Shown here in pieces: positions 16,151-44,199 of a stretch of 64,000 nt of DNA; within the stretch, counting starts at the first letter, position 1, and every line of letters starts with the position of its first letter. Source of the stretch: Escherichia phage EscoHU1. A program made the translations under genes and the position numbers. The notes beneath the pieces are model-generated. The model did not search any database and had not been told where the DNA came from. It saw nothing but the letters and a program-made list of their open reading frames with translations. The DNA lies in sequence record NC_133119.1; one strand, written 5' to 3'.

Positions 16151-16741
16151 TCAAACATTGATATCTCCTCTCAATACCGCTGCCACATCTTCATCGATTT
16201 GGAGTACTTCACCAGTAGTGCAGTTAACCACTTTATCATAGCTTGTGAATTTGCCAGACACAATATCCTCTAGAGGAATAGGAGTCTTGCTCATCTCAAA
16301 AGAGACGTTGATATAACGTGGGTCACGCACAGAATTAGTGTGCACATGTCCGTGAATGTTTAGCCTACCACGAAGTTCTGCTTCGTGCAATGGACAATGT
16401 GACAGCCAAAACTTCTTGCCACCACCTGTTTGCTTACCTAGAGCCTGAATATCATCATAAACGTCTACAAGATCTTTAATATGCAGACCCTGACGCTCAG
16501 CATCGTGGTTTCCCATAATTAGTTGGTTAGGCACGTTGTGGATAACCGACTTCAACTTGGCCAACCCTTCTCGCCCCACGGCACTATCTCCTAGCAGCAC
16601 AAGTTTTGTACGCTTGCCAATGTGCTTGGACAAAGTATCTAGGATATACTCATCGTGCTCTTTCATGTTCTTAAACCAGGGGCGAAAACGAAGAATCCCT
16701 GGGTGGTCTAAGTGGAGTTCACTCCAGAATTTAACTTTCAT
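16151..16741 (-). CDS. calcineurin-like metallophosphoesterase
   Basis: 196 aa; GDSAVG, GNHD, HGHVH motifs. Confidence 0.65.
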   Translation of the reverse strand: MKVKFWSELHLDHPGILRFRPWFKNMKEHDEYILDTLSKHIGKRTKLVLLGDSAVGREGLAKLKSVIHNVPNQLIMGNHDAERQGLHIKDLVDVYDDIQALGKQTGGGKKFWLSHCPLHEAELRGRLNIHGHVHTNSVRDPRYINVSFEMSKTPIPLEDIVSGKFTSYDKVVNCTTGEVLQIDEDVAAVLRGDINV

Positions 16742-16947
16742 TATTTATTCCTTACACATGTGGATGTAATAGTATAACTATCGTAGAATATACCTTTTGT
16801 GAGTCCAATTTGAATACTGGAATAATCTAGCTCACCTCCAGCTACATCACATAAGTGTTTTGTATCTTCTGCAGTAAATCTCATATTATCGTCGTAGGAA
16901 TCACATCCAGCTAGTATTAGTACTGATAATAGTAGTAATCTCTTCAT
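16741..16947 (-). CDS. putative lipoprotein
   Basis: 68 aa; signal peptide with LAGC lipobox. Confidence 0.5.
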   Translation of the reverse strand: MKRLLLLSVLILAGCDSYDDNMRFTAEDTKHLCDVAGGELDYSSIQIGLTKGIFYDSYTITSTCVRNK

Positions 16948-17315
16948 TACAGAACTTCCTCCGCATATTTATTCCAACCCTGACAATAACTACTAATACC
17001 ACGAAGTTTGAATATTTCATCATAAACCTCATGGTGCTCTTTCGCTTCTTGGTAGCCTTTGTCAACCTCTTCCTGTCGTGCTTGTTCAAATTCAACACGA
17101 TTCTCTAGCATCTTCCAGACTTCTTCGTACTCTGGCCAATCATGCTCTACTACGACTGTTTTAAGATCCTCTTTACCACGTTGTGCTCGACTATACCATA
17201 GTTTGGACAAGATATGCTCCAAAGTAGTAAAGTTACTTTGAGTGATATGCCCTAATTCTATGGCTTTCTCAATATCAGATAGCTTTATAACTACATAACG
17301 TTCTTCACGTTCCAT
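16947..17315 (-). CDS. hypothetical protein
   Basis: 122 aa ORF. Confidence 0.5.
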   Translation of the reverse strand: MEREERYVVIKLSDIEKAIELGHITQSNFTTLEHILSKLWYSRAQRGKEDLKTVVVEHDWPEYEEVWKMLENRVEFEQARQEEVDKGYQEAKEHHEVYDEIFKLRGISSYCQGWNKYAEEVL

Positions 17316-18193
17316 TATAGAATCCTCTGTACACCACAGCTATCATTTTTATCTGTGGTAAATGTCATGATTTTACCGGCTTCATCATTAAGTTGCGCAA
17401 CCGTCAACTGCCCGTTGAAAACACCGCCAGTATCGAGATAAACACGGTTCTTGTACAGAATTGGGTAAGGAACACCAGTGTGACCATGGAATACGAAATC
17501 TACACTTTCAACTTCTGGCACTTCCACAGTCAGTTCATCTTTAAATCCTGCATAACGCTGGAAATAGGGGTGCTCTGCACCTTGCTTAGACAGATGAAAA
17601 CCAATTTCCTGAATTACATCACGATCCCATAGATATGGCTCAATGTAATAACTAGGATGATCATTAGGATCATTTTCACTTGCAGCGATATGATCAATAA
17701 TATCGTCCCAATTAGGTGTATGTACATCTAATCCCGCATCTTTATATCGGAATGGTATTCCACCATGAACAACACCATATTTCTTGCCACGATGGAGTAC
17801 AGTCATGAATACTGGCATTTTAACTGCCATATCTTCTGCGATACCTTTAATTGTATCGGTATCCAGATCATTCATTGCCCACATTCCACCATTATACATC
17901 CAGTTGGCATAATCCCCGGCAATCATAAACTGATCATGGTTGCCACGAACGCTACGGAAGCGTGGGTTATATAAGAATTTGGCTAGAACCTGTAAGTTCT
18001 GCGGGCCACGGTCAATTAAGTCGCCAACACAGACAACATAGTCACGCTTTTCTTTATATCCTGCTAGTTTAAGAGCATCTTCCAGCATATCATTACAGCC
18101 GTGAATATCTCCTACGAAGAACAGGTTAACATCGTCTGGTACTACTAACATTTCGTGCAGGTTAAATTCTTTTTTCATTATCGAGTCATCCAA
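17315..18193 (-). CDS. Ser/Thr protein phosphatase (PPP family)
   Basis: 292 aa; GDIHG, GDLIDRG, GNHD motifs. Confidence 0.8.
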   Translation of the reverse strand: MDDSIMKKEFNLHEMLVVPDDVNLFFVGDIHGCNDMLEDALKLAGYKEKRDYVVCVGDLIDRGPQNLQVLAKFLYNPRFRSVRGNHDQFMIAGDYANWMYNGGMWAMNDLDTDTIKGIAEDMAVKMPVFMTVLHRGKKYGVVHGGIPFRYKDAGLDVHTPNWDDIIDHIAASENDPNDHPSYYIEPYLWDRDVIQEIGFHLSKQGAEHPYFQRYAGFKDELTVEVPEVESVDFVFHGHTGVPYPILYKNRVYLDTGGVFNGQLTVAQLNDEAGKIMTFTTDKNDSCGVQRIL

Positions 18194-19429: not shown

Positions 19430-19846
19430 TTAGTGTGCTTGATGTGGGAATCTCTTCCTAACTAAGTACATAGTTATTGGATATATTGAATACATAAGTA
19501 TAGGGGAGAAAAGGGTGAAATAAGCCGTGACTCCCCCAGCTAACATTAGTGGTATCAATGCTAGAGTAAGGGCCATAAGAATCATACCGAATGAGACAGC
19601 CAGGGCTACTGTGATGCAGTTCTCTAACTCCATCCAAAGCCAACAATATTTCGTATTCCTCTGGCAGTTGCATTTGCAAACGCCGAATGTGCCCATAATT
19701 ATATACTCTAGCCCATGAACGACTTTCTTTAATGTATCATTTTGGGTAACTAGTGCGACAACAGTGAGAATTATCATTAAGATGAAAATTACTAGGCTTA
19801 TTTTCCATATTCCTAGTAATATCATGGTGAATAGTTCTGCAAACAT
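19430..19846 (-). CDS. multi-pass membrane protein (Cys-rich loop)
   Basis: 138 aa, 3-4 TM segments. Confidence 0.45.
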   Translation of the reverse strand: MFAELFTMILLGIWKISLVIFILMIILTVVALVTQNDTLKKVVHGLEYIIMGTFGVCKCNCQRNTKYCWLWMELENCITVALAVSFGMILMALTLALIPLMLAGGVTAYFTLFSPILMYSIYPITMYLVRKRFPHQAH

Positions 19847-30644: not shown

Positions 30645-30725
30645 TGGTAGGGATGGAGGGACTCGAACCCACACCCGAAGACTAGAACCTAAATCTAGCG
30701 CGTCTGCCAATTTCGCCACATCCCC
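30645..30725 (-). tRNA. tRNA-Leu (UAG)
   Basis: Leu-type D-arm GCGAAATTGGCAGACGC; stem CTAGA/TCTAG, loop TTTAGGT. Confidence 0.7.
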
Positions 30726-30969: not shown

Positions 30970-31045
30970 TTGGTGGAGTCACTCAGAATTGAACTGAGTT
31001 CCACTGCTTGCAAGGCAGTAAGTTTAACCAAATAACCTATGACCC
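30970..31045 (-). tRNA. tRNA-Ala (UGC)
   Basis: G3:U70 pair, loop CTTGCAA, 3' end GACTCCACCA. Confidence 0.8.
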
Positions 31046-31050
31046 CGAAT

Positions 31051-31129
31051 TTGGTGGAGAATAAGAGATTCGAACTCTTCTGATATCCTCGGTGCAAGCG
31101 AGGTGTCCACTCCAAGCAGACCCATTCCC
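31051..31129 (-). tRNA. second tRNA with anticodon UGC (Ala-like, enlarged D-loop)
   Basis: 79 nt; G3:U70; loop CTTGCAC. Confidence 0.55.
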
Positions 31130-31392
31130 CAAAATCTTTAAGTTTACTAAGGCTATTAGCTCGGTGTGCGTATTACCCTCAGACATTAGCCAGTAGAGGA
31201 TAACCGCTCTTCACAAACCCGATACACTATTCAGTTGCCGCTGAATCTAGTGGACTAATCTAGAACTTATTGCAAAGTATCCCCCGCCATTAGGGGTCTA
31301 ATTGCAATTGTGCTTTTTGGCAGCCAGTCCTAGGTCGAGCTAATACCTTAGTGAACTTTGATGAGGATTTCTCCTCATCAATTTATATAAAT

Positions 31393-32978: not shown

Positions 32979-33365
32979 TTATGTGCTGTGTATTTCTCGA
33001 TGACAATTCGCACACACTAAAATACATTTCTGTAATTCTTCTCTCAGCTTATCCCTGGAAATACCAGAGGATCTGAATTGACTAATATTATAGTCTTTTG
33101 AGTTTTCATCAATATGATGAAAATCCAGAGCTTGTTTGCATTTATTATACCCACAAATAGAACATTCTAATATAGGGAAGTATTCTGCAATAATAGAATC
33201 AACAGTTTCACGTCTTTTTGCATTTTCGCTAATCTTACATGTTGGCTTCCACTTTTGTTTACCCGAGGGATATATTCCATTAGTATAGAAATATTCCTTG
33301 GTTAGTGGGTGTTCCACACCACAGTTTTTACAAAACTTGTATTCCATAGCTCCTCGAACAGTCAA
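32979..33365 (-). CDS. HNH homing endonuclease
   Basis: 128 aa; DFHHIDENSKDYN...CANCHREIH. Confidence 0.7.
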   Translation of the reverse strand: MTVRGAMEYKFCKNCGVEHPLTKEYFYTNGIYPSGKQKWKPTCKISENAKRRETVDSIIAEYFPILECSICGYNKCKQALDFHHIDENSKDYNISQFRSSGISRDKLREELQKCILVCANCHREIHST

Positions 33366-33678: not shown

Positions 33679-33755
33679 TGGCGCGACCGATGGGATTCGA
33701 ACCCACATTCTCTCCCGTGACAGGGGAGTACCATTACCAAGCCAGCCCCGATCGC
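33679..33755 (-). tRNA. tRNA-Asp (GUC)
   Basis: Stem CTCCC/GGGAG, loop CTGTCAC, G73. Confidence 0.8.
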
Positions 33756-33764
33756 ATAATTTGT

Positions 33765-33950
33765 TTACTCAGCTTTGAGTTTTTCGATAGCTTCCTTAAC
33801 CTCTTTTAGAGCTTCACGACGTGCATTCTGTTGCTGCATATCTTGTATTAACGTCAGTTTTTGGTTTTCAATTTCTTGATCCCAGACCTTAATATTATTA
33901 ATTAGATTATCACGATCAGCTTCTAGTCGAGCAATTGCACGAGTTGTCAT
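33765..33950 (-). CDS. small coiled-coil protein
   Basis: 61 aa ORF. Confidence 0.4.
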   Translation of the reverse strand: MTTRAIARLEADRDNLINNIKVWDQEIENQKLTLIQDMQQQNARREALKEVKEAIEKLKAE

Positions 33951-33977: not shown

Positions 33978-34060
33978 TGGCGGGCCGTGTAGGATTCGAA
34001 CCTACGTTGTCTTTCGACATGGATTAACAGTCCACCGCCAAACCGCTTGGCTAACGACCC
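33978..34060 (-). tRNA. tRNA-Asn (GUU) with 13-nt variable arm
   Basis: Anticodon arm TGGACTGTTAATCCA as E. coli tRNA-Asn; G73; 83 nt. Confidence 0.65.
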
Positions 34061-34067
34061 TAAAATT

Positions 34068-34143
34068 TGGACGACCGCATGAGATTCGAACTCACATAAG
34101 GAGGTTTTGCAGGCCTCCGCCTAAGCCATTCAGCCAACGGTCG
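34068..34143 (-). tRNA. tRNA-Cys (GCA)
   Basis: Loop CTGCAAA, U73, 3' end GTCGTCCA. Confidence 0.7.
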
Positions 34144-34882: not shown

Positions 34883-34957
34883 TGGTGCACCCCGTTGGTA
34901 ACGATCCAACCTCTCAAGCTCTTCAGGCAAGCGCTAATCCATCTCAGCTAAAGGTGC
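34883..34957 (-). tRNA. tRNA-Phe-like (GAA), two U-U mismatches in anticodon stem, non-canonical T-loop
   Basis: Acceptor GCACCTT/GGGGTGC + ACCA; loop CTGAAGA; T-loop ATCGTTA. Confidence 0.5.
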
Positions 34958-36137: not shown

Positions 36138-36214
36138 TGGTAGGGGTGGTGGGATTCGAACCCACAAAACCCGAATTTTAAGTCCGGTACCTATGCCAAT
36201 TCGATTACACCCCC
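36138..36214 (-). tRNA. tRNA with anticodon UAA (Leu by anticodon) in class-I frame
   Basis: 77 nt; stem CCGGA/TTCGG, loop CTTAAAA, 5-nt variable loop. Confidence 0.6.
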
Positions 36215-43340: not shown

Positions 43341-44199
43341 TTTAGGTATTTTTAAGAACTCTCGTAAAAGTCCATAAAAATACCCGACGGTAGGTAGGGT
43401 CAGCCCCCTCAGATTAAGCTCTGCAGCCCTTCCGTCAGACAATATCTTCCAGTTTAAGTCAGGGTGACTTTGTGGTTATGTTCTCCGTATGTGAAGAACT
43501 CGGTTAGGCTTAGGTCATGACTCCCAGCCTGCTGCTGCCGCTCAACAGGAATTATCGCGAATTACCTGTACTATTGGGCACCATTAGTGACATCTCTCAT
43601 GTCAGCATTTCCCACTCTCATATTCACGCGGTCTGTTAGAATCGCACCTCCGATTTTCGATGCGAAGCTGGATGCCTAGTCTCTAGGTTAAACGGGGCAC
43701 ACACTAGGCAGTGATCCCGAGTTCCGAGTTTGGTTGAGGCCGTCAGGTTTCCTCGTGGTTTAGCTGTTTCGATTCTAACCTAATACTGATCAGGCGGTGT
43801 ACCTCCTGAACCGTCATAGTATGTACTACAGCAGCGAATGCTTATCCGGTATAAGCCCGAGTTATCTGATTCTTTCCGACCGCAGGATTCGAACCTGCAT
43901 CTTCCACCAGTTACGGTTTGATATTACCGTTTATACTAGGACGGCAGTGTTATCACATAAGTCAGTTCGACACCCCACTAACATAAACTAGAGAAGAGTT
44001 TACGAGATTTCGGGACAGCTCCCGAGTTTTCCGCAGATTTTCAGTTCCCTATCAATAGCAATAAGCGTTAGCTCGTAGCCTCTCTCAGAGTACTTACTAG
44101 TCTCCAACTCACCGACTCTATTCAGTGGAATAGCTATCCTAGTAGGAATCACTAAACTCACTCAGCGTAATCGGCTCGCTGTTCTCTAATTTATGAATC
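43341..44199 (-). ncRNA. candidate structured non-coding RNA / long leader (GC-richer ORF-free island)
   Basis: About 860 nt with no ORF of 60 aa or more on the transcribed strand; immediately downstream of promoter 44200-44228; T-arm-like hairpin at about 43875-43895. Confidence 0.35.

What the first reader, a model, noticed from the sequence alone, without database searches (positions are those of the whole stretch)
33978..34060. tRNA-Asn with a 13-nt variable arm
The anticodon arm matches E. coli tRNA-Asn, but the variable region is 13 nt with its own short stem, giving an 83-nt class-II-like molecule with G73. A long arm is unusual outside Ser, Leu and Tyr tRNAs. It might alter synthetase recognition or be an insertion without effect.
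Basis: seen in the sequence. Interest (0 to 1): 0.4.

Follow-up and report, generated by a model that had tools for sequence, protein, structure and literature searches.

The report
Phage tRNA-Asn with extra stem-loop
A T5-like phage encodes an asparagine tRNA with an extra conserved hairpin in its variable region, a design common in phages and almost absent from cells, which may help phage tRNAs escape host tRNA-cutting defences, though that role is untested.

Summary
Window 34060->33978 (minus strand) encodes an 83-nt tRNA-Asn(GUU) with G73, an encoded CCA and a 13-nt variable region (GUC-GAAA-GAC stem-loop plus AAC). ARAGORN, Rfam and the MFE fold agree, and no fold gives a 5-nt loop. The window is a T5-like phage with a 28-tRNA array. 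The gene is >=99% identical in 206 phage records, and 533 records hold a full-length relative. Equivalent long-arm tRNA-Asn genes occur in T4-like, Phapecoctavirus and phiKZ-like phages and many uncultivated viruses: 53 distinct sequences, 46 distinct arms, strong stem covariation. Cells almost lack it (6 pattern hits in 185,579 species genomes, against 68 in IMG/VR). It is therefore a selected feature and not a neutral insertion. AsnRS identity elements (GUU, G73) are intact. The arm is shorter than this phage's Ser arms (18-23 nt) and the D arm is class I, so serine mischarging is unlikely. T5's own tRNA-Asn, which helps defeat the PARIS nuclease AriB, is an ordinary class I tRNA with a mutated cleavage site. 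This gene instead keeps the host's cleavage-site sequence. My best hypothesis, which is inferred, is that the arm sterically blocks host tRNA nucleases. I found no prior description.

The parts
33978..34060 (-). Whole tRNA-Asn(GUU) gene, 83 nt including the encoded CCA
   Evidence: ARAGORN; Rfam RF00005 at 59 bits; cloverleaf MFE
34054..34060 (-). Acceptor stem 5' strand GGGUCGU (nt 1-7), identical to E. coli tRNA-Lys(UUU)
34037..34051 (-). D arm GCCA-AGCGGUU-UGGC: a 4-bp stem and 7-nt loop of class I type. A single C lies between G15 and G18, where host tRNA-Asn has U16-C17
34019..34035 (-). Anticodon arm GUGGA-CUGUUAA-UCCAU, with anticodon GUU at 34026-34028. Positions 36-41 read UAAUCC, identical to host tRNA-Asn, including the AriB cut site between 40 and 41
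   Evidence: PMC12409363
34006..34018 (-). Variable region, 13 nt: stem GUC/GAC, GAAA tetraloop, then unpaired AAC (the final C is the likely partner of G15)
   Evidence: covariation in homologues
33989..34005 (-). T arm GUAGG-UUCGAAU-CCUAC
33982..33988 (-). Acceptor stem 3' strand ACGGCCC (nt 66-72 in standard numbering)
33978..33981 (-). Discriminator G73 (33981) and encoded CCA (33978-33980)
34068..34143 (-). Upstream neighbour tRNA-Cys(GCA), 7 nt away, in the same syntenic slot as in T5 and other Markadamsvirinae
33679..33755 (-). Downstream neighbour tRNA-Asp(GUC), separated by a 61-aa ORF at 33765-33950

Best explanation
This is a genuine, expressed-type elongator tRNA-Asn(GUU) of a T5-like phage (Markadamsvirinae), sitting in the phage's tRNA array. 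It has a class I body whose acceptor and T arms resemble host tRNA-Lys and whose anticodon arm is host-Asn-like. An 8-nt expansion turns the variable loop into a 3-bp hairpin with a GNRA cap. I expect host AsnRS to charge it, because the anticodon and G73 are intact, and I expect it to read AAC/AAU as Asn. The extra arm is under selection. My preferred mechanism is that it acts as a steric anti-determinant: it keeps the phage tRNA out of the active site of host anti-phage tRNA nucleases that dock on the anticodon-stem / variable-loop / D-arm face. The PARIS effector AriB is one such nuclease. It cuts host tRNA-Asn between nt 40 and 41, three nucleotides before the variable region, while its second subunit reads the D loop. 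With the arm in place, Asn decoding would continue after host tRNA-Asn is destroyed. Shown here: the structure, conservation, covariation, restriction to phages, recurrence on different backbones, and intact Asn identity elements. Inferred: charging with Asn, and the whole nuclease-evasion role. The confidence of 0.4 refers to the nuclease-evasion mechanism. That this is a real, selected, structured phage tRNA-Asn I hold at about 0.9.
For: 1. The tRNA is real and structured.
2. It is under purifying selection. It is >=99% identical in 206 phage records, while the surrounding 901 bp is mostly 80-95% identical. 533 records hold a full-length relative.
3. The arm is conserved as structure and not as sequence. 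There are 46 distinct arms in 53 distinct genes, and the inner pairs covary. A second Epseptimavirus allele (EH3) in the same Cys-Asn slot has the arm AUCC-GCAA-GGAU.
4. It recurs in Demerecviridae, Straboviridae, Phapecoctavirus and phiKZ-like phages. For 14 of 32 long genes the nearest relative is an ordinary class I Asn, which suggests repeated insertion.
5. It is phage-specific. The same pattern gives 68 IMG/VR stretches against 6 in 185,579 species genomes, and at least 2 of those 6 are phage-like tRNA arrays. No complete E. coli genome matched at E <= 0.01.
6. Asn identity is kept. All have anticodon GUU, G73 is present in 51 of 53, and the bacterial Asn hallmark U1-A72 is present in 34 of 53 (PMC9976931).
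7. Defence context. Host tRNA-Asn(GUU) is an AriB target cut at 40/41, and T5 tRNA-Asn is needed for full rescue (PMC12409363).
8. In this window tRNA-Lys(UUU) reads UACCUC and tRNA-Thr(UGU) reads UAAGCA at positions 36-41, so both have lost the U39 that AriB needs. tRNA-Asn keeps the host UAAUCC, so if it is resistant the cause must lie elsewhere.
9. T5's own Asn takes the other route: it has a 5-nt variable loop but reads UAAGUU at 36-41.
10. Precedent: T5 tRNA-Tyr resists retron-Eco7/Septu cleavage because of its distinctive variable loop (PMC13096335).
11. 10 of 36 viral loci with a long Asn also keep a short Asn(GUU). This fits diversification against nucleases better than simple codon supply.
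Against: 1. No experiment has tested a long-arm tRNA-Asn. The one apparent natural test, Bas34, whose own Asn failed to rescue, is uninformative because that gene is a chimera with a broken acceptor stem.
2. tRNA-Asn is only a secondary, weakly cleaved AriB substrate.
3. This tRNA also lacks the host's U16. A U16C change alone impairs AriB cleavage of tRNA-Lys, so the arm may not be needed for AriB resistance.
4. tRNA-Lys(UUU), a main AriB target and (from memory) also the PrrC target, never carries a long arm in the sample (0 of 58).
5. Other isotypes that do carry long arms (Cys, Trp, Ile) are not known nuclease targets.
6. GNRA-capped arms are ordinary in phage Leu and Ser tRNAs.
7. Class II synthetases approach tRNA from the acceptor-stem major-groove side (PMC7373986). 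From memory this is the variable-loop side, so the arm could cost charging efficiency.
8. The sampling pattern fixed the anticodon arm and T loop, so frequencies are biased, and there is no denominator for cellular genomes.
Confidence: 0.4

Rival explanations
1. The arm is a structural or folding aid with no link to defence. The extra GNRA-capped hairpin stabilises the tRNA core, or compensates for missing host modifications in the variable loop when phage tRNAs are made in bulk. The tRNA is otherwise an ordinary Asn tRNA that supplements supply.
For: GNRA-capped short arms are generic in phage tRNAs: 33 of 63 Leu and 28 of 80 Ser. Long arms in other class I isotypes are about 3 times commoner in phages that have a long Asn (22/313 against 14/588, p = 0.001), which suggests a lineage-level habit. 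The arm covaries, as a purely structural element would.
Against: The isotype distribution is strongly non-random. Asn, Thr, Ile, Cys and Trp carry long arms in 50 of 271 genes, against 7 of 589 for twelve other isotypes (p = 9e-20; without Asn, p = 1.5e-10). In this window only 1 of 28 tRNAs has the arm. Hosts manage without it. Many phages keep a short Asn next to the long one.
Confidence: 0.25
2. The arm is a recognition handle for a phage-encoded factor, such as a modification enzyme, a tRNA-binding protein or a self/non-self marker. It would let the phage treat its own tRNA differently from host tRNA-Asn.
For: It is restricted to phages, the GNRA loop is conserved over changing stems (28 of 46 arms), and long arms cluster in certain phage lineages.
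Against: No candidate partner was identified. The phage families that carry the arm (T5-like, T4-like, phiKZ-like) share few genes. Stem length (2-7 bp) and flanking nucleotides vary, which is loose for a specific protein site.
Confidence: 0.12
3. Identity switch. The extra arm together with G73, G1-C72, G2-C71 and C11-G24 makes the tRNA a SerRS substrate, so AAC/AAU are partly read as Ser.
For: [quoted passage not shown] All are present here. Some other 'Asn(GUU)' genes found do have Ser-like bodies, for example L022 with a 7-bp arm and a class II D arm, and L125.
Against: The arm is 13 nt with 3 bp, against 18-23 nt in this phage's own tRNA-Ser genes. The D arm is class I, and the acceptor and T arms match tRNA-Lys and not Ser. 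34 of 53 relatives have U1-A72, the Asn hallmark. Close relatives with near-identical proteomes carry a normal class I Asn in the same slot, so there is no sign of recoding. From memory, E. coli tRNA-Tyr, which has an arm of the same size, is not serylated until its arm is lengthened.
Confidence: 0.05
4. Neutral insertion, or a decaying or non-functional gene.
For: A 3-bp hairpin in a single sequence is weak evidence; the fold z-score is only -2.3.
Against: The gene is identical in 206 records while the flanks diverge. All stems are intact and CCA is encoded. Compensatory changes occur in the arm and in the acceptor and T stems between lineages. A truly decayed copy (Bas34) looks quite different.
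Confidence: 0.03

Closest known systems
Host (E. coli/Salmonella) tRNA-Asn(GUU), class I
   Same: The anticodon loop CUGUUAA is identical, the anticodon arm matches at 15 of 17 positions, G73 is shared, and positions 36-41 read UAAUCC in both.
   Different: The host has a 5-nt variable loop (AUGUC), U1-A72, and U16-C17 in the D loop. The acceptor stem matches at 3 of 14 positions and the T arm at 10 of 17. The phage tRNA's acceptor and T arms instead match host tRNA-Lys(UUU), at 13 of 14 and 15 of 17.
Phage T5 tRNA-Asn(GUU), an experimentally supported anti-PARIS tRNA (PMC12409363)
   Same: Same isoacceptor, same genomic slot between tRNA-Cys and tRNA-Asp in a Markadamsvirinae tRNA array, with G73 and an encoded CCA.
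   Different: T5's is class I, with the 5-nt variable loop GGGUU, and its anticodon stem is mutated at the AriB site (UAAGUU, with a U-U mismatch). The window's keeps the host site and has the extra arm. The two are alternative alleles: 134 phage records hold the T5 type at >=95% identity, and 267 hold the window type.
Class II tRNAs (bacterial Leu, Ser, Tyr)
   Same: The variable region is longer than 10 nt and forms a stem-loop. GNRA caps are also common on phage Leu and Ser arms.
   Different: The anticodon belongs to a class I isotype, the D arm has a 4-bp stem and 7-nt loop, the arm is only 3 bp, and G73 excludes Leu and Tyr identity.
T5 tRNA-Tyr, whose distinctive variable loop gives resistance to retron-Eco7 / Septu PtuAB cleavage (PMC13096335, PMC11555353)
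   Same: A phage tRNA from the same family in which remodelling of the variable arm is the stated basis of nuclease resistance.
   Different: That case modifies an arm that already exists and is itself the cut site. Here an arm is added to an isotype that normally lacks one, and resistance is untested.
Class II-shaped tRNAs with class I anticodons: nematode nev-tRNAs (from memory) and bacterial allo-tRNAs (PMC5389517)
   Same: A long variable arm combined with an anticodon that normally belongs to a short-arm tRNA.
   Different: Those are Leu/Ser/Sec-type bodies charged according to the arm and not the anticodon, and allo-tRNAs have 8/4 or 9/3 acceptor/T geometry. This tRNA has a canonical 7/5 geometry, a class I body and full Asn determinants. 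A few other genes met in passing (L022, L125, L126) do look like that kind.

Membership tests
tRNA (Rfam RF00005) | Cloverleaf matching the covariance model above the gathering score | tested here: met
   59.0 bits against a gathering score of 29, full model 1-71, E 3.3e-10. ARAGORN also calls it.
tRNA-Asn (E. coli-type AsnRS identity) | Anticodon G34-U35-U36 | tested here: met
   Anticodon GTT at position 33 of the gene. Identity set per PMC9976931.
tRNA-Asn (E. coli-type AsnRS identity) | Discriminator G73 | tested here: met
   G precedes the encoded CCA. G73 is present in 51 of 53 long-arm relatives.
tRNA-Asn (E. coli-type AsnRS identity) | Actually aminoacylated with Asn | not testable with these tools
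   Needs in vitro charging or acid-gel/tRNA-seq of infected cells.
Bacterial tRNA-Asn (transamidation route) | U1-A72 pair, the GatCAB determinant | tested here: not met
   The window has G1-C72. This is irrelevant in AsnRS-containing enterobacterial hosts. 34 of 53 relatives do have U1-A72.
Class II (long-arm) tRNA architecture | Variable region longer than 10 nt forming a helix | tested here: met
   13 nt, with a GUC/GAC stem and GAAA loop. Covariation supports the helix.
Class II (long-arm) tRNA architecture | Class II-type D arm (3-bp stem, enlarged loop) that orients the arm. This definition is from memory. | tested here: not met
   The D arm is GCCA-AGCGGUU-UGGC, a 4-bp stem with a 7-nt loop.
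tRNA-Ser identity (E. coli SerRS) | G73 with G1-C72 and G2-C71 | tested here: met
   The acceptor stem is GGGUCGU/ACGGCCC with G73. Features per PMC9976931.
tRNA-Ser identity (E. coli SerRS) | Ser-sized long variable arm and Ser-type tertiary shape | tested here: not met
   13 nt with 3 bp, against 18, 19 and 23 nt in the window's three tRNA-Ser genes. The D arm is class I.
tRNA-Leu / tRNA-Tyr identity | Discriminator A73 | tested here: not met
   The discriminator is G73. G73 is an antideterminant for LeuRS and TyrRS (table in PMC9976931).
AriB(PARIS)-resistant phage tRNA variants | Substitution at or next to the cut site (positions 39-41) | tested here: not met
   Positions 36-41 read UAAUCC, identical to host tRNA-Asn. 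T5 Asn, and the window's Lys and Thr, are substituted there.
AriB(PARIS)-resistant phage tRNA variants | Loss of the D-loop U16 read by the second AriB subunit | tested here: met
   A single C lies between G15 and G18, where the host has U16-C17.
AriB(PARIS)-resistant phage tRNA variants | Demonstrated resistance to cleavage or rescue of infection | not testable with these tools
   No published test of a long-arm Asn was found. The Bas34 copy is a broken chimera.

The most novel reading that the evidence does not exclude
Long variable arms define a phage-specific class of 'armoured' tRNAs. The arm has been added repeatedly to a particular subset of class I isotypes (Asn above all, then Thr(UGU), Ile, Cys and Trp) as a general structural counter-measure. 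It would either block host anti-phage tRNA nucleases sterically or mark phage tRNAs as self. That would add a second route of tRNA-based immune evasion beside the known point mutations in the anticodon stem-loop, and it would break the textbook rule that only Leu, Ser, Tyr and Sec tRNAs are class II.
Probability: 0.3. Interest if true: 0.8.

Novelty: new variant of a known kind. Interest (0 to 1): 0.55.

Why it matters
Phage tRNA arrays have recently been recast as anti-defence devices: they replace host tRNAs that are destroyed by PARIS, retron/Septu, OLD and Schlafen-type nucleases. So far, resistance has been explained by point substitutions around the cut site. This gene suggests a different, architectural solution, an added helix, that is widespread in phages and almost absent from cells. 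It appears in exactly the isoacceptor and phage family where a tRNA-Asn has been shown to matter against PARIS.

If the arm confers nuclease resistance, it gives a simple portable module for making nuclease-proof tRNAs for phage therapy chassis or synthetic biology. It would also be a new marker for predicting which host tRNAs are under attack. If it does not, it still shows that AsnRS, and probably ThrRS, IleRS, CysRS and TrpRS, tolerate a class II-like arm, which bears on tRNA identity rules and on tRNA engineering.

Tried and rejected
1. Origin from class II tRNA-Tyr(GUA) by A36U plus A73G. This was suggested by the GUC/GAC stem and Tyr-like D arms in phiKZ-type genes. Nearest-neighbour analysis with the anticodon loop and variable region masked gave Asn for 14 of 32, Cys for 8 and Tyr for only 3, so it is not supported as a general origin. 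For the window's lineage the body is closest to tRNA-Lys.

2. The GNRA cap as an Asn-specific signal. This is rejected, because GNRA is equally common on phage Leu and Ser arms.

3. Bas34 (SelmaRatti) as a natural experiment. The PARIS paper reports that Bas34's own tRNA-Asn does not rescue. Bas34 does carry the long arm, but its 3' quarter comes from another tRNA and the acceptor stem cannot pair, so it says nothing either way.

4. Searching E. coli genomes for a long-arm copy, for example in prophages, found none.

5. Searches of the held library of open-access papers and preprints for a prior description found nothing on a long-arm phage tRNA-Asn (and 'variable' searched within the PARIS, OLD and Schlafen papers). 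The PARIS papers never use the word 'variable'.

6. MAFFT on the bare 14-nt arm segments mis-registered them. I redid the alignment with constant anchors.

7. P2 OLD as the relevant nuclease. Neither OLD paper mentions Asn or the variable region.

Full report
**What is there.** The window is part of a T5-like phage genome (Demerecviridae, Markadamsvirinae). The 901 bp around the finding match Salmonella phage STG2 at 99.4%, Stitch at 98.4%, and 453 phage records in all. ARAGORN finds 28 tRNA genes, all on the minus strand, between 27.9 and 43.3 kb. The gene in question lies at 34060->33978.

It reads GGGUCGU-UA-GCCA-AGCGGUU-UGGC-G-GUGGA-CUGUUAA-UCCAU-GUCGAAAGACAAC-GUAGG-UUCGAAU-CCUAC-ACGGCCC-G-CCA, 83 nt. 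ARAGORN calls it tRNA-Asn(GUU) at exactly the reported coordinates. Rfam's tRNA model scores it at 59 bits and places a 10-nt insertion in the variable region. The MFE and centroid folds are a perfect cloverleaf plus a 3-bp GUC/GAC helix capped by GAAA.

**Comparison with the host.** E. coli tRNA-Asn was verified at 100% identity in 5,425 of 5,426 complete genomes, with a median of four copies. It is class I, with the variable loop AUGUC.
- The phage tRNA shares its anticodon loop, 15 of 17 positions of the anticodon arm, and G73.
- Only 3 of 14 acceptor-stem and 10 of 17 T-arm positions match.
- Those parts instead match host tRNA-Lys(UUU), at 13 of 14 and 15 of 17.
- No complete E. coli genome matched the long form at E <= 0.01.

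**Is the arm selected?** Yes.
- The 83-nt gene is >=99% identical in 206 phage records and >=95% identical in 267. 533 records hold a full-length relative. The flanks are mostly 80-95% identical.
- A second allele in the same Cys-Asn slot of another Epseptimavirus (EH3) has the same acceptor stem but the arm AUCC-GCAA-GGAU-AAA.
- Annotated relatives occur in Straboviridae: Serratia CHI14 has the same arm on a different backbone, and Klebsiella Roth51 has GUCA-GAAA-UGAC. They also occur in Phapecoctavirus (nepoznato, GUUC-GAAA-GAAC) and in phiKZ-like Pseudomonas phages (U-GGC-GAAA-GCC-CAUC).
- I scanned IMG/VR for GGACTGTTAATCC...GGTTCGAATCC with a free gap. Of 119 parseable genes in a row-capped sample, 33 had variable regions of 11-18 nt instead of 4-5.
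- The long-gap version of the pattern matches 68 viral stretches, and that scan was not capped.
- Altogether there are 53 distinct long-arm genes with 46 distinct arms. G73 is present in 51 of 53. U1-A72 is present in 34 and G1-C72 in 19.
- On a loop-anchored alignment of 30 distinct tetraloop arms, the three inner pairs are 98-100% paired and use all four Watson-Crick types. The covariation score is 0.807, against 0.224 for shuffles (0 of 500 reach it) and 0.11-0.22 for slid partners.
- One caveat applies to that alignment: the loop anchor came from each sequence's own fold, which inflates the percentage paired but not the diversity of pair types.

**Phage-specific.** The identical long-gap pattern found 6 places in one genome for each of 185,579 bacterial and archaeal species.
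- Two of the six are not tRNAs.
- Two lie in phage-like arrays of 10 and 23 tRNAs.
- Two are single genes in alphaproteobacterial MAGs whose bodies look Ser-like or Leu-like.

I could not obtain a denominator of short-arm matches in cellular genomes, and the pattern fixes the anticodon arm and T loop, so all frequencies are rough.

**Identity.** Asparagine identity in E. coli rests on the three anticodon bases and G73, and it is transplantable into a tRNA-Lys body (PMC9976931). This tRNA looks exactly like that transplant. G73 is an antideterminant for LeuRS and TyrRS.

Serine identity depends mainly on a long arm plus G73 and G1-C72/G2-C71. The acceptor features are present here. However, the arm is 13 nt with 3 bp, against 18, 19 and 23 nt in the phage's own tRNA-Ser genes, and the D arm is class I. 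I therefore rate serine mischarging as unlikely (about 5%) but not excluded.

**Defence context.**
- A U39A change abolishes cleavage. The second subunit is modelled on D-loop U16-U17, and a U16C change impairs cleavage.
- T5 tRNA-Lys, tRNA-Thr and tRNA-Asn together neutralise PARIS (PMC12409363).
- T5's own tRNA-Asn is a different gene from the one here. It is 78 nt, class I, with the variable loop GGGUU, and positions 36-41 read UAAGUU. That allele is present at >=95% identity in 134 phage records.
- In this window tRNA-Lys(UUU) reads UACCUC and tRNA-Thr(UGU) reads UAAGCA, so both have lost U39. tRNA-Asn keeps the host's UAAUCC.
- The Asn gene differs from the host only by one anticodon-stem pair, by the loss of U16, and by the extra arm, which begins three nucleotides after the cut site.
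- The variable arm already has one precedent as a resistance determinant: T5 tRNA-Tyr against retron-Eco7/Septu (PMC13096335).

This is the basis for my preferred hypothesis of steric protection. It is an inference.

The PARIS paper noted that Bas34's own tRNA-Asn did not suffice. I found that Bas34 (SelmaRatti, MZ501103) does carry the long arm, but its 3' quarter comes from another tRNA, so the acceptor stem cannot pair. That observation is therefore neutral.

**Broader pattern.** Among 1,068 distinct tRNAs in the first 120 viral loci, genes of 81 nt or more occur as follows.

| Isotype | Genes >=81 nt / total |
|---|---|
| Asn | 27/101 |
| Thr (all UGU) | 7/59 |
| Ile | 6/47 |
| Cys | 6/33 |
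| Trp | 4/31 |
| Twelve other class I isotypes combined | 7/589 |
| Lys | 0/58 |
| Met | 0/63 |
| Gly | 0/60 |

- The contrast between the first five isotypes and the other twelve has p = 9e-20, and p = 1.5e-10 without Asn.
- Most of these genes have 3-4 bp arms with GNRA loops, and they tend to co-occur in the same phages (22/313 against 14/588).
- Ten of 36 loci with a long Asn also encode a short Asn(GUU), often adjacent.
- GNRA caps are not special to Asn, since they are common on phage Leu and Ser arms.
- Conversely, about half of the viral tRNA-Leu genes have reduced arms, including both Leu genes in this window.

Phage tRNAs thus treat the variable arm as a freely adjustable module.

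**Verdict.** The finding is real. It is not an artefact and not a neutral insertion. It is a structural variant of tRNA-Asn that is characteristic of phages.

I found no description of it in the searchable literature, although hundreds of GenBank records annotate the gene simply as tRNA-Asn.

| Proposed function | My estimate |
|---|---|
| Protection from host tRNA nucleases | about 0.4 |
| Purely structural role | about 0.25 |
| Handle for a phage factor | about 0.12 |
| Serine mischarging | about 0.05 |
| Non-functional | about 0.03 |

Noticed in passing
window 36138-36214 (-) and 30645-30725 (-): Both tRNA-Leu genes have reduced variable arms. Leu(UAA) is 77 nt with a 5-nt variable loop (GUUUU) and A73. 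Leu(UAG) is 81 nt with a 9-nt variable region (UCUUCGGGU). This is a class II isotype built as class I, the mirror image of the Asn case. In the viral loci, 48 of 92 distinct tRNA-Leu genes are shorter than 81 nt.
   Followed up: partly
window 34886-34957 (-) and 43874-43945 (-): Two weak Rfam tRNA hits (33.4 and 29.3 bits) that ARAGORN does not call. The first sits where relatives have tRNA-Phe. It folds as a Phe(GAA)-like cloverleaf with a weak anticodon stem and an odd T loop (AUCGUUA). The second lies in the region corresponding to T5 'RNAX'.
   Followed up: partly
L130 (Escherichia phage SelmaRatti/Bas34, MZ501103) 17599-17681 and 19525-19612: Two chimeric tRNA genes that look like deletion products. 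One joins the 5' three-quarters of the long-arm tRNA-Asn to a Met-like 3' end, which breaks the acceptor stem. The other joins the 5' half of tRNA-His to the 3' half of a class II tRNA (88 nt). This probably explains published observations that Bas34's own tRNA-Asn does not protect it from PARIS.
   Followed up: yes
L022 6795-6883 (IMG/VR contig of 412 kb); L125 6272-6358; L126 2414-2497: These 'tRNA-Asn(GUU)' genes have bodies that look like class II tRNAs. L022 has a 7-bp variable stem, a class II D arm and G73, which is Ser-like. L125 (Caulobacteraceae MAG) is Ser-like. L126 (Devosia MAG) has the Leu-type D arm GGCGGAAUGGUAGACGC with G73. They could be charged according to the arm and not the anticodon, so they are candidates for AAY mistranslation or recoding.
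   Followed up: partly
L019 4406-4492 (T5-like IMG/VR contig, 117.8 kb): A T5-like phage carries an 87-nt tRNA-Thr(UGU) with a variable arm GGA-GUAA-UCC. Thr(UGU) is a prime AriB and OLD target. The window's own Thr(UGU) is a normal 75 nt.
   Followed up: no
viral loci L001-L120: Long variable arms on class I isotypes are strongly isotype-biased. Asn, Thr(UGU), Ile, Cys and Trp carry them in 50 of 271 genes, against 7 of 589 for the other twelve isotypes. Lys, Met, Gly, Phe, Gln and Ala have none. They also co-occur within phages (L004, L060, L070, L075). Nothing I know of unites these five isotypes.
   Followed up: partly
window 32979-33365 (-): A 128-aa ORF with an HNH-like motif (CANCHREIH) is embedded in the tRNA array, as with the homing endonucleases annotated among T5's tRNA genes.
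   Followed up: no
window 30971-31046 (-) and 31052-31130 (-): Two adjacent tRNA-Ala(UGC) genes with different bodies, the second with a 7-nt variable region (79 nt). There are also two tRNA-Gln genes, two tRNA-Lys genes and three CAU-anticodon genes. The array holds duplicated isoacceptors of divergent sequence.
   Followed up: no
L121 (phage T5, NC_005859) 16618-17052: T5.081, next to the tRNA region, is annotated 'tRNA amidotransferase'. I did not check whether the window has a homologue or what the protein is.
   Followed up: no
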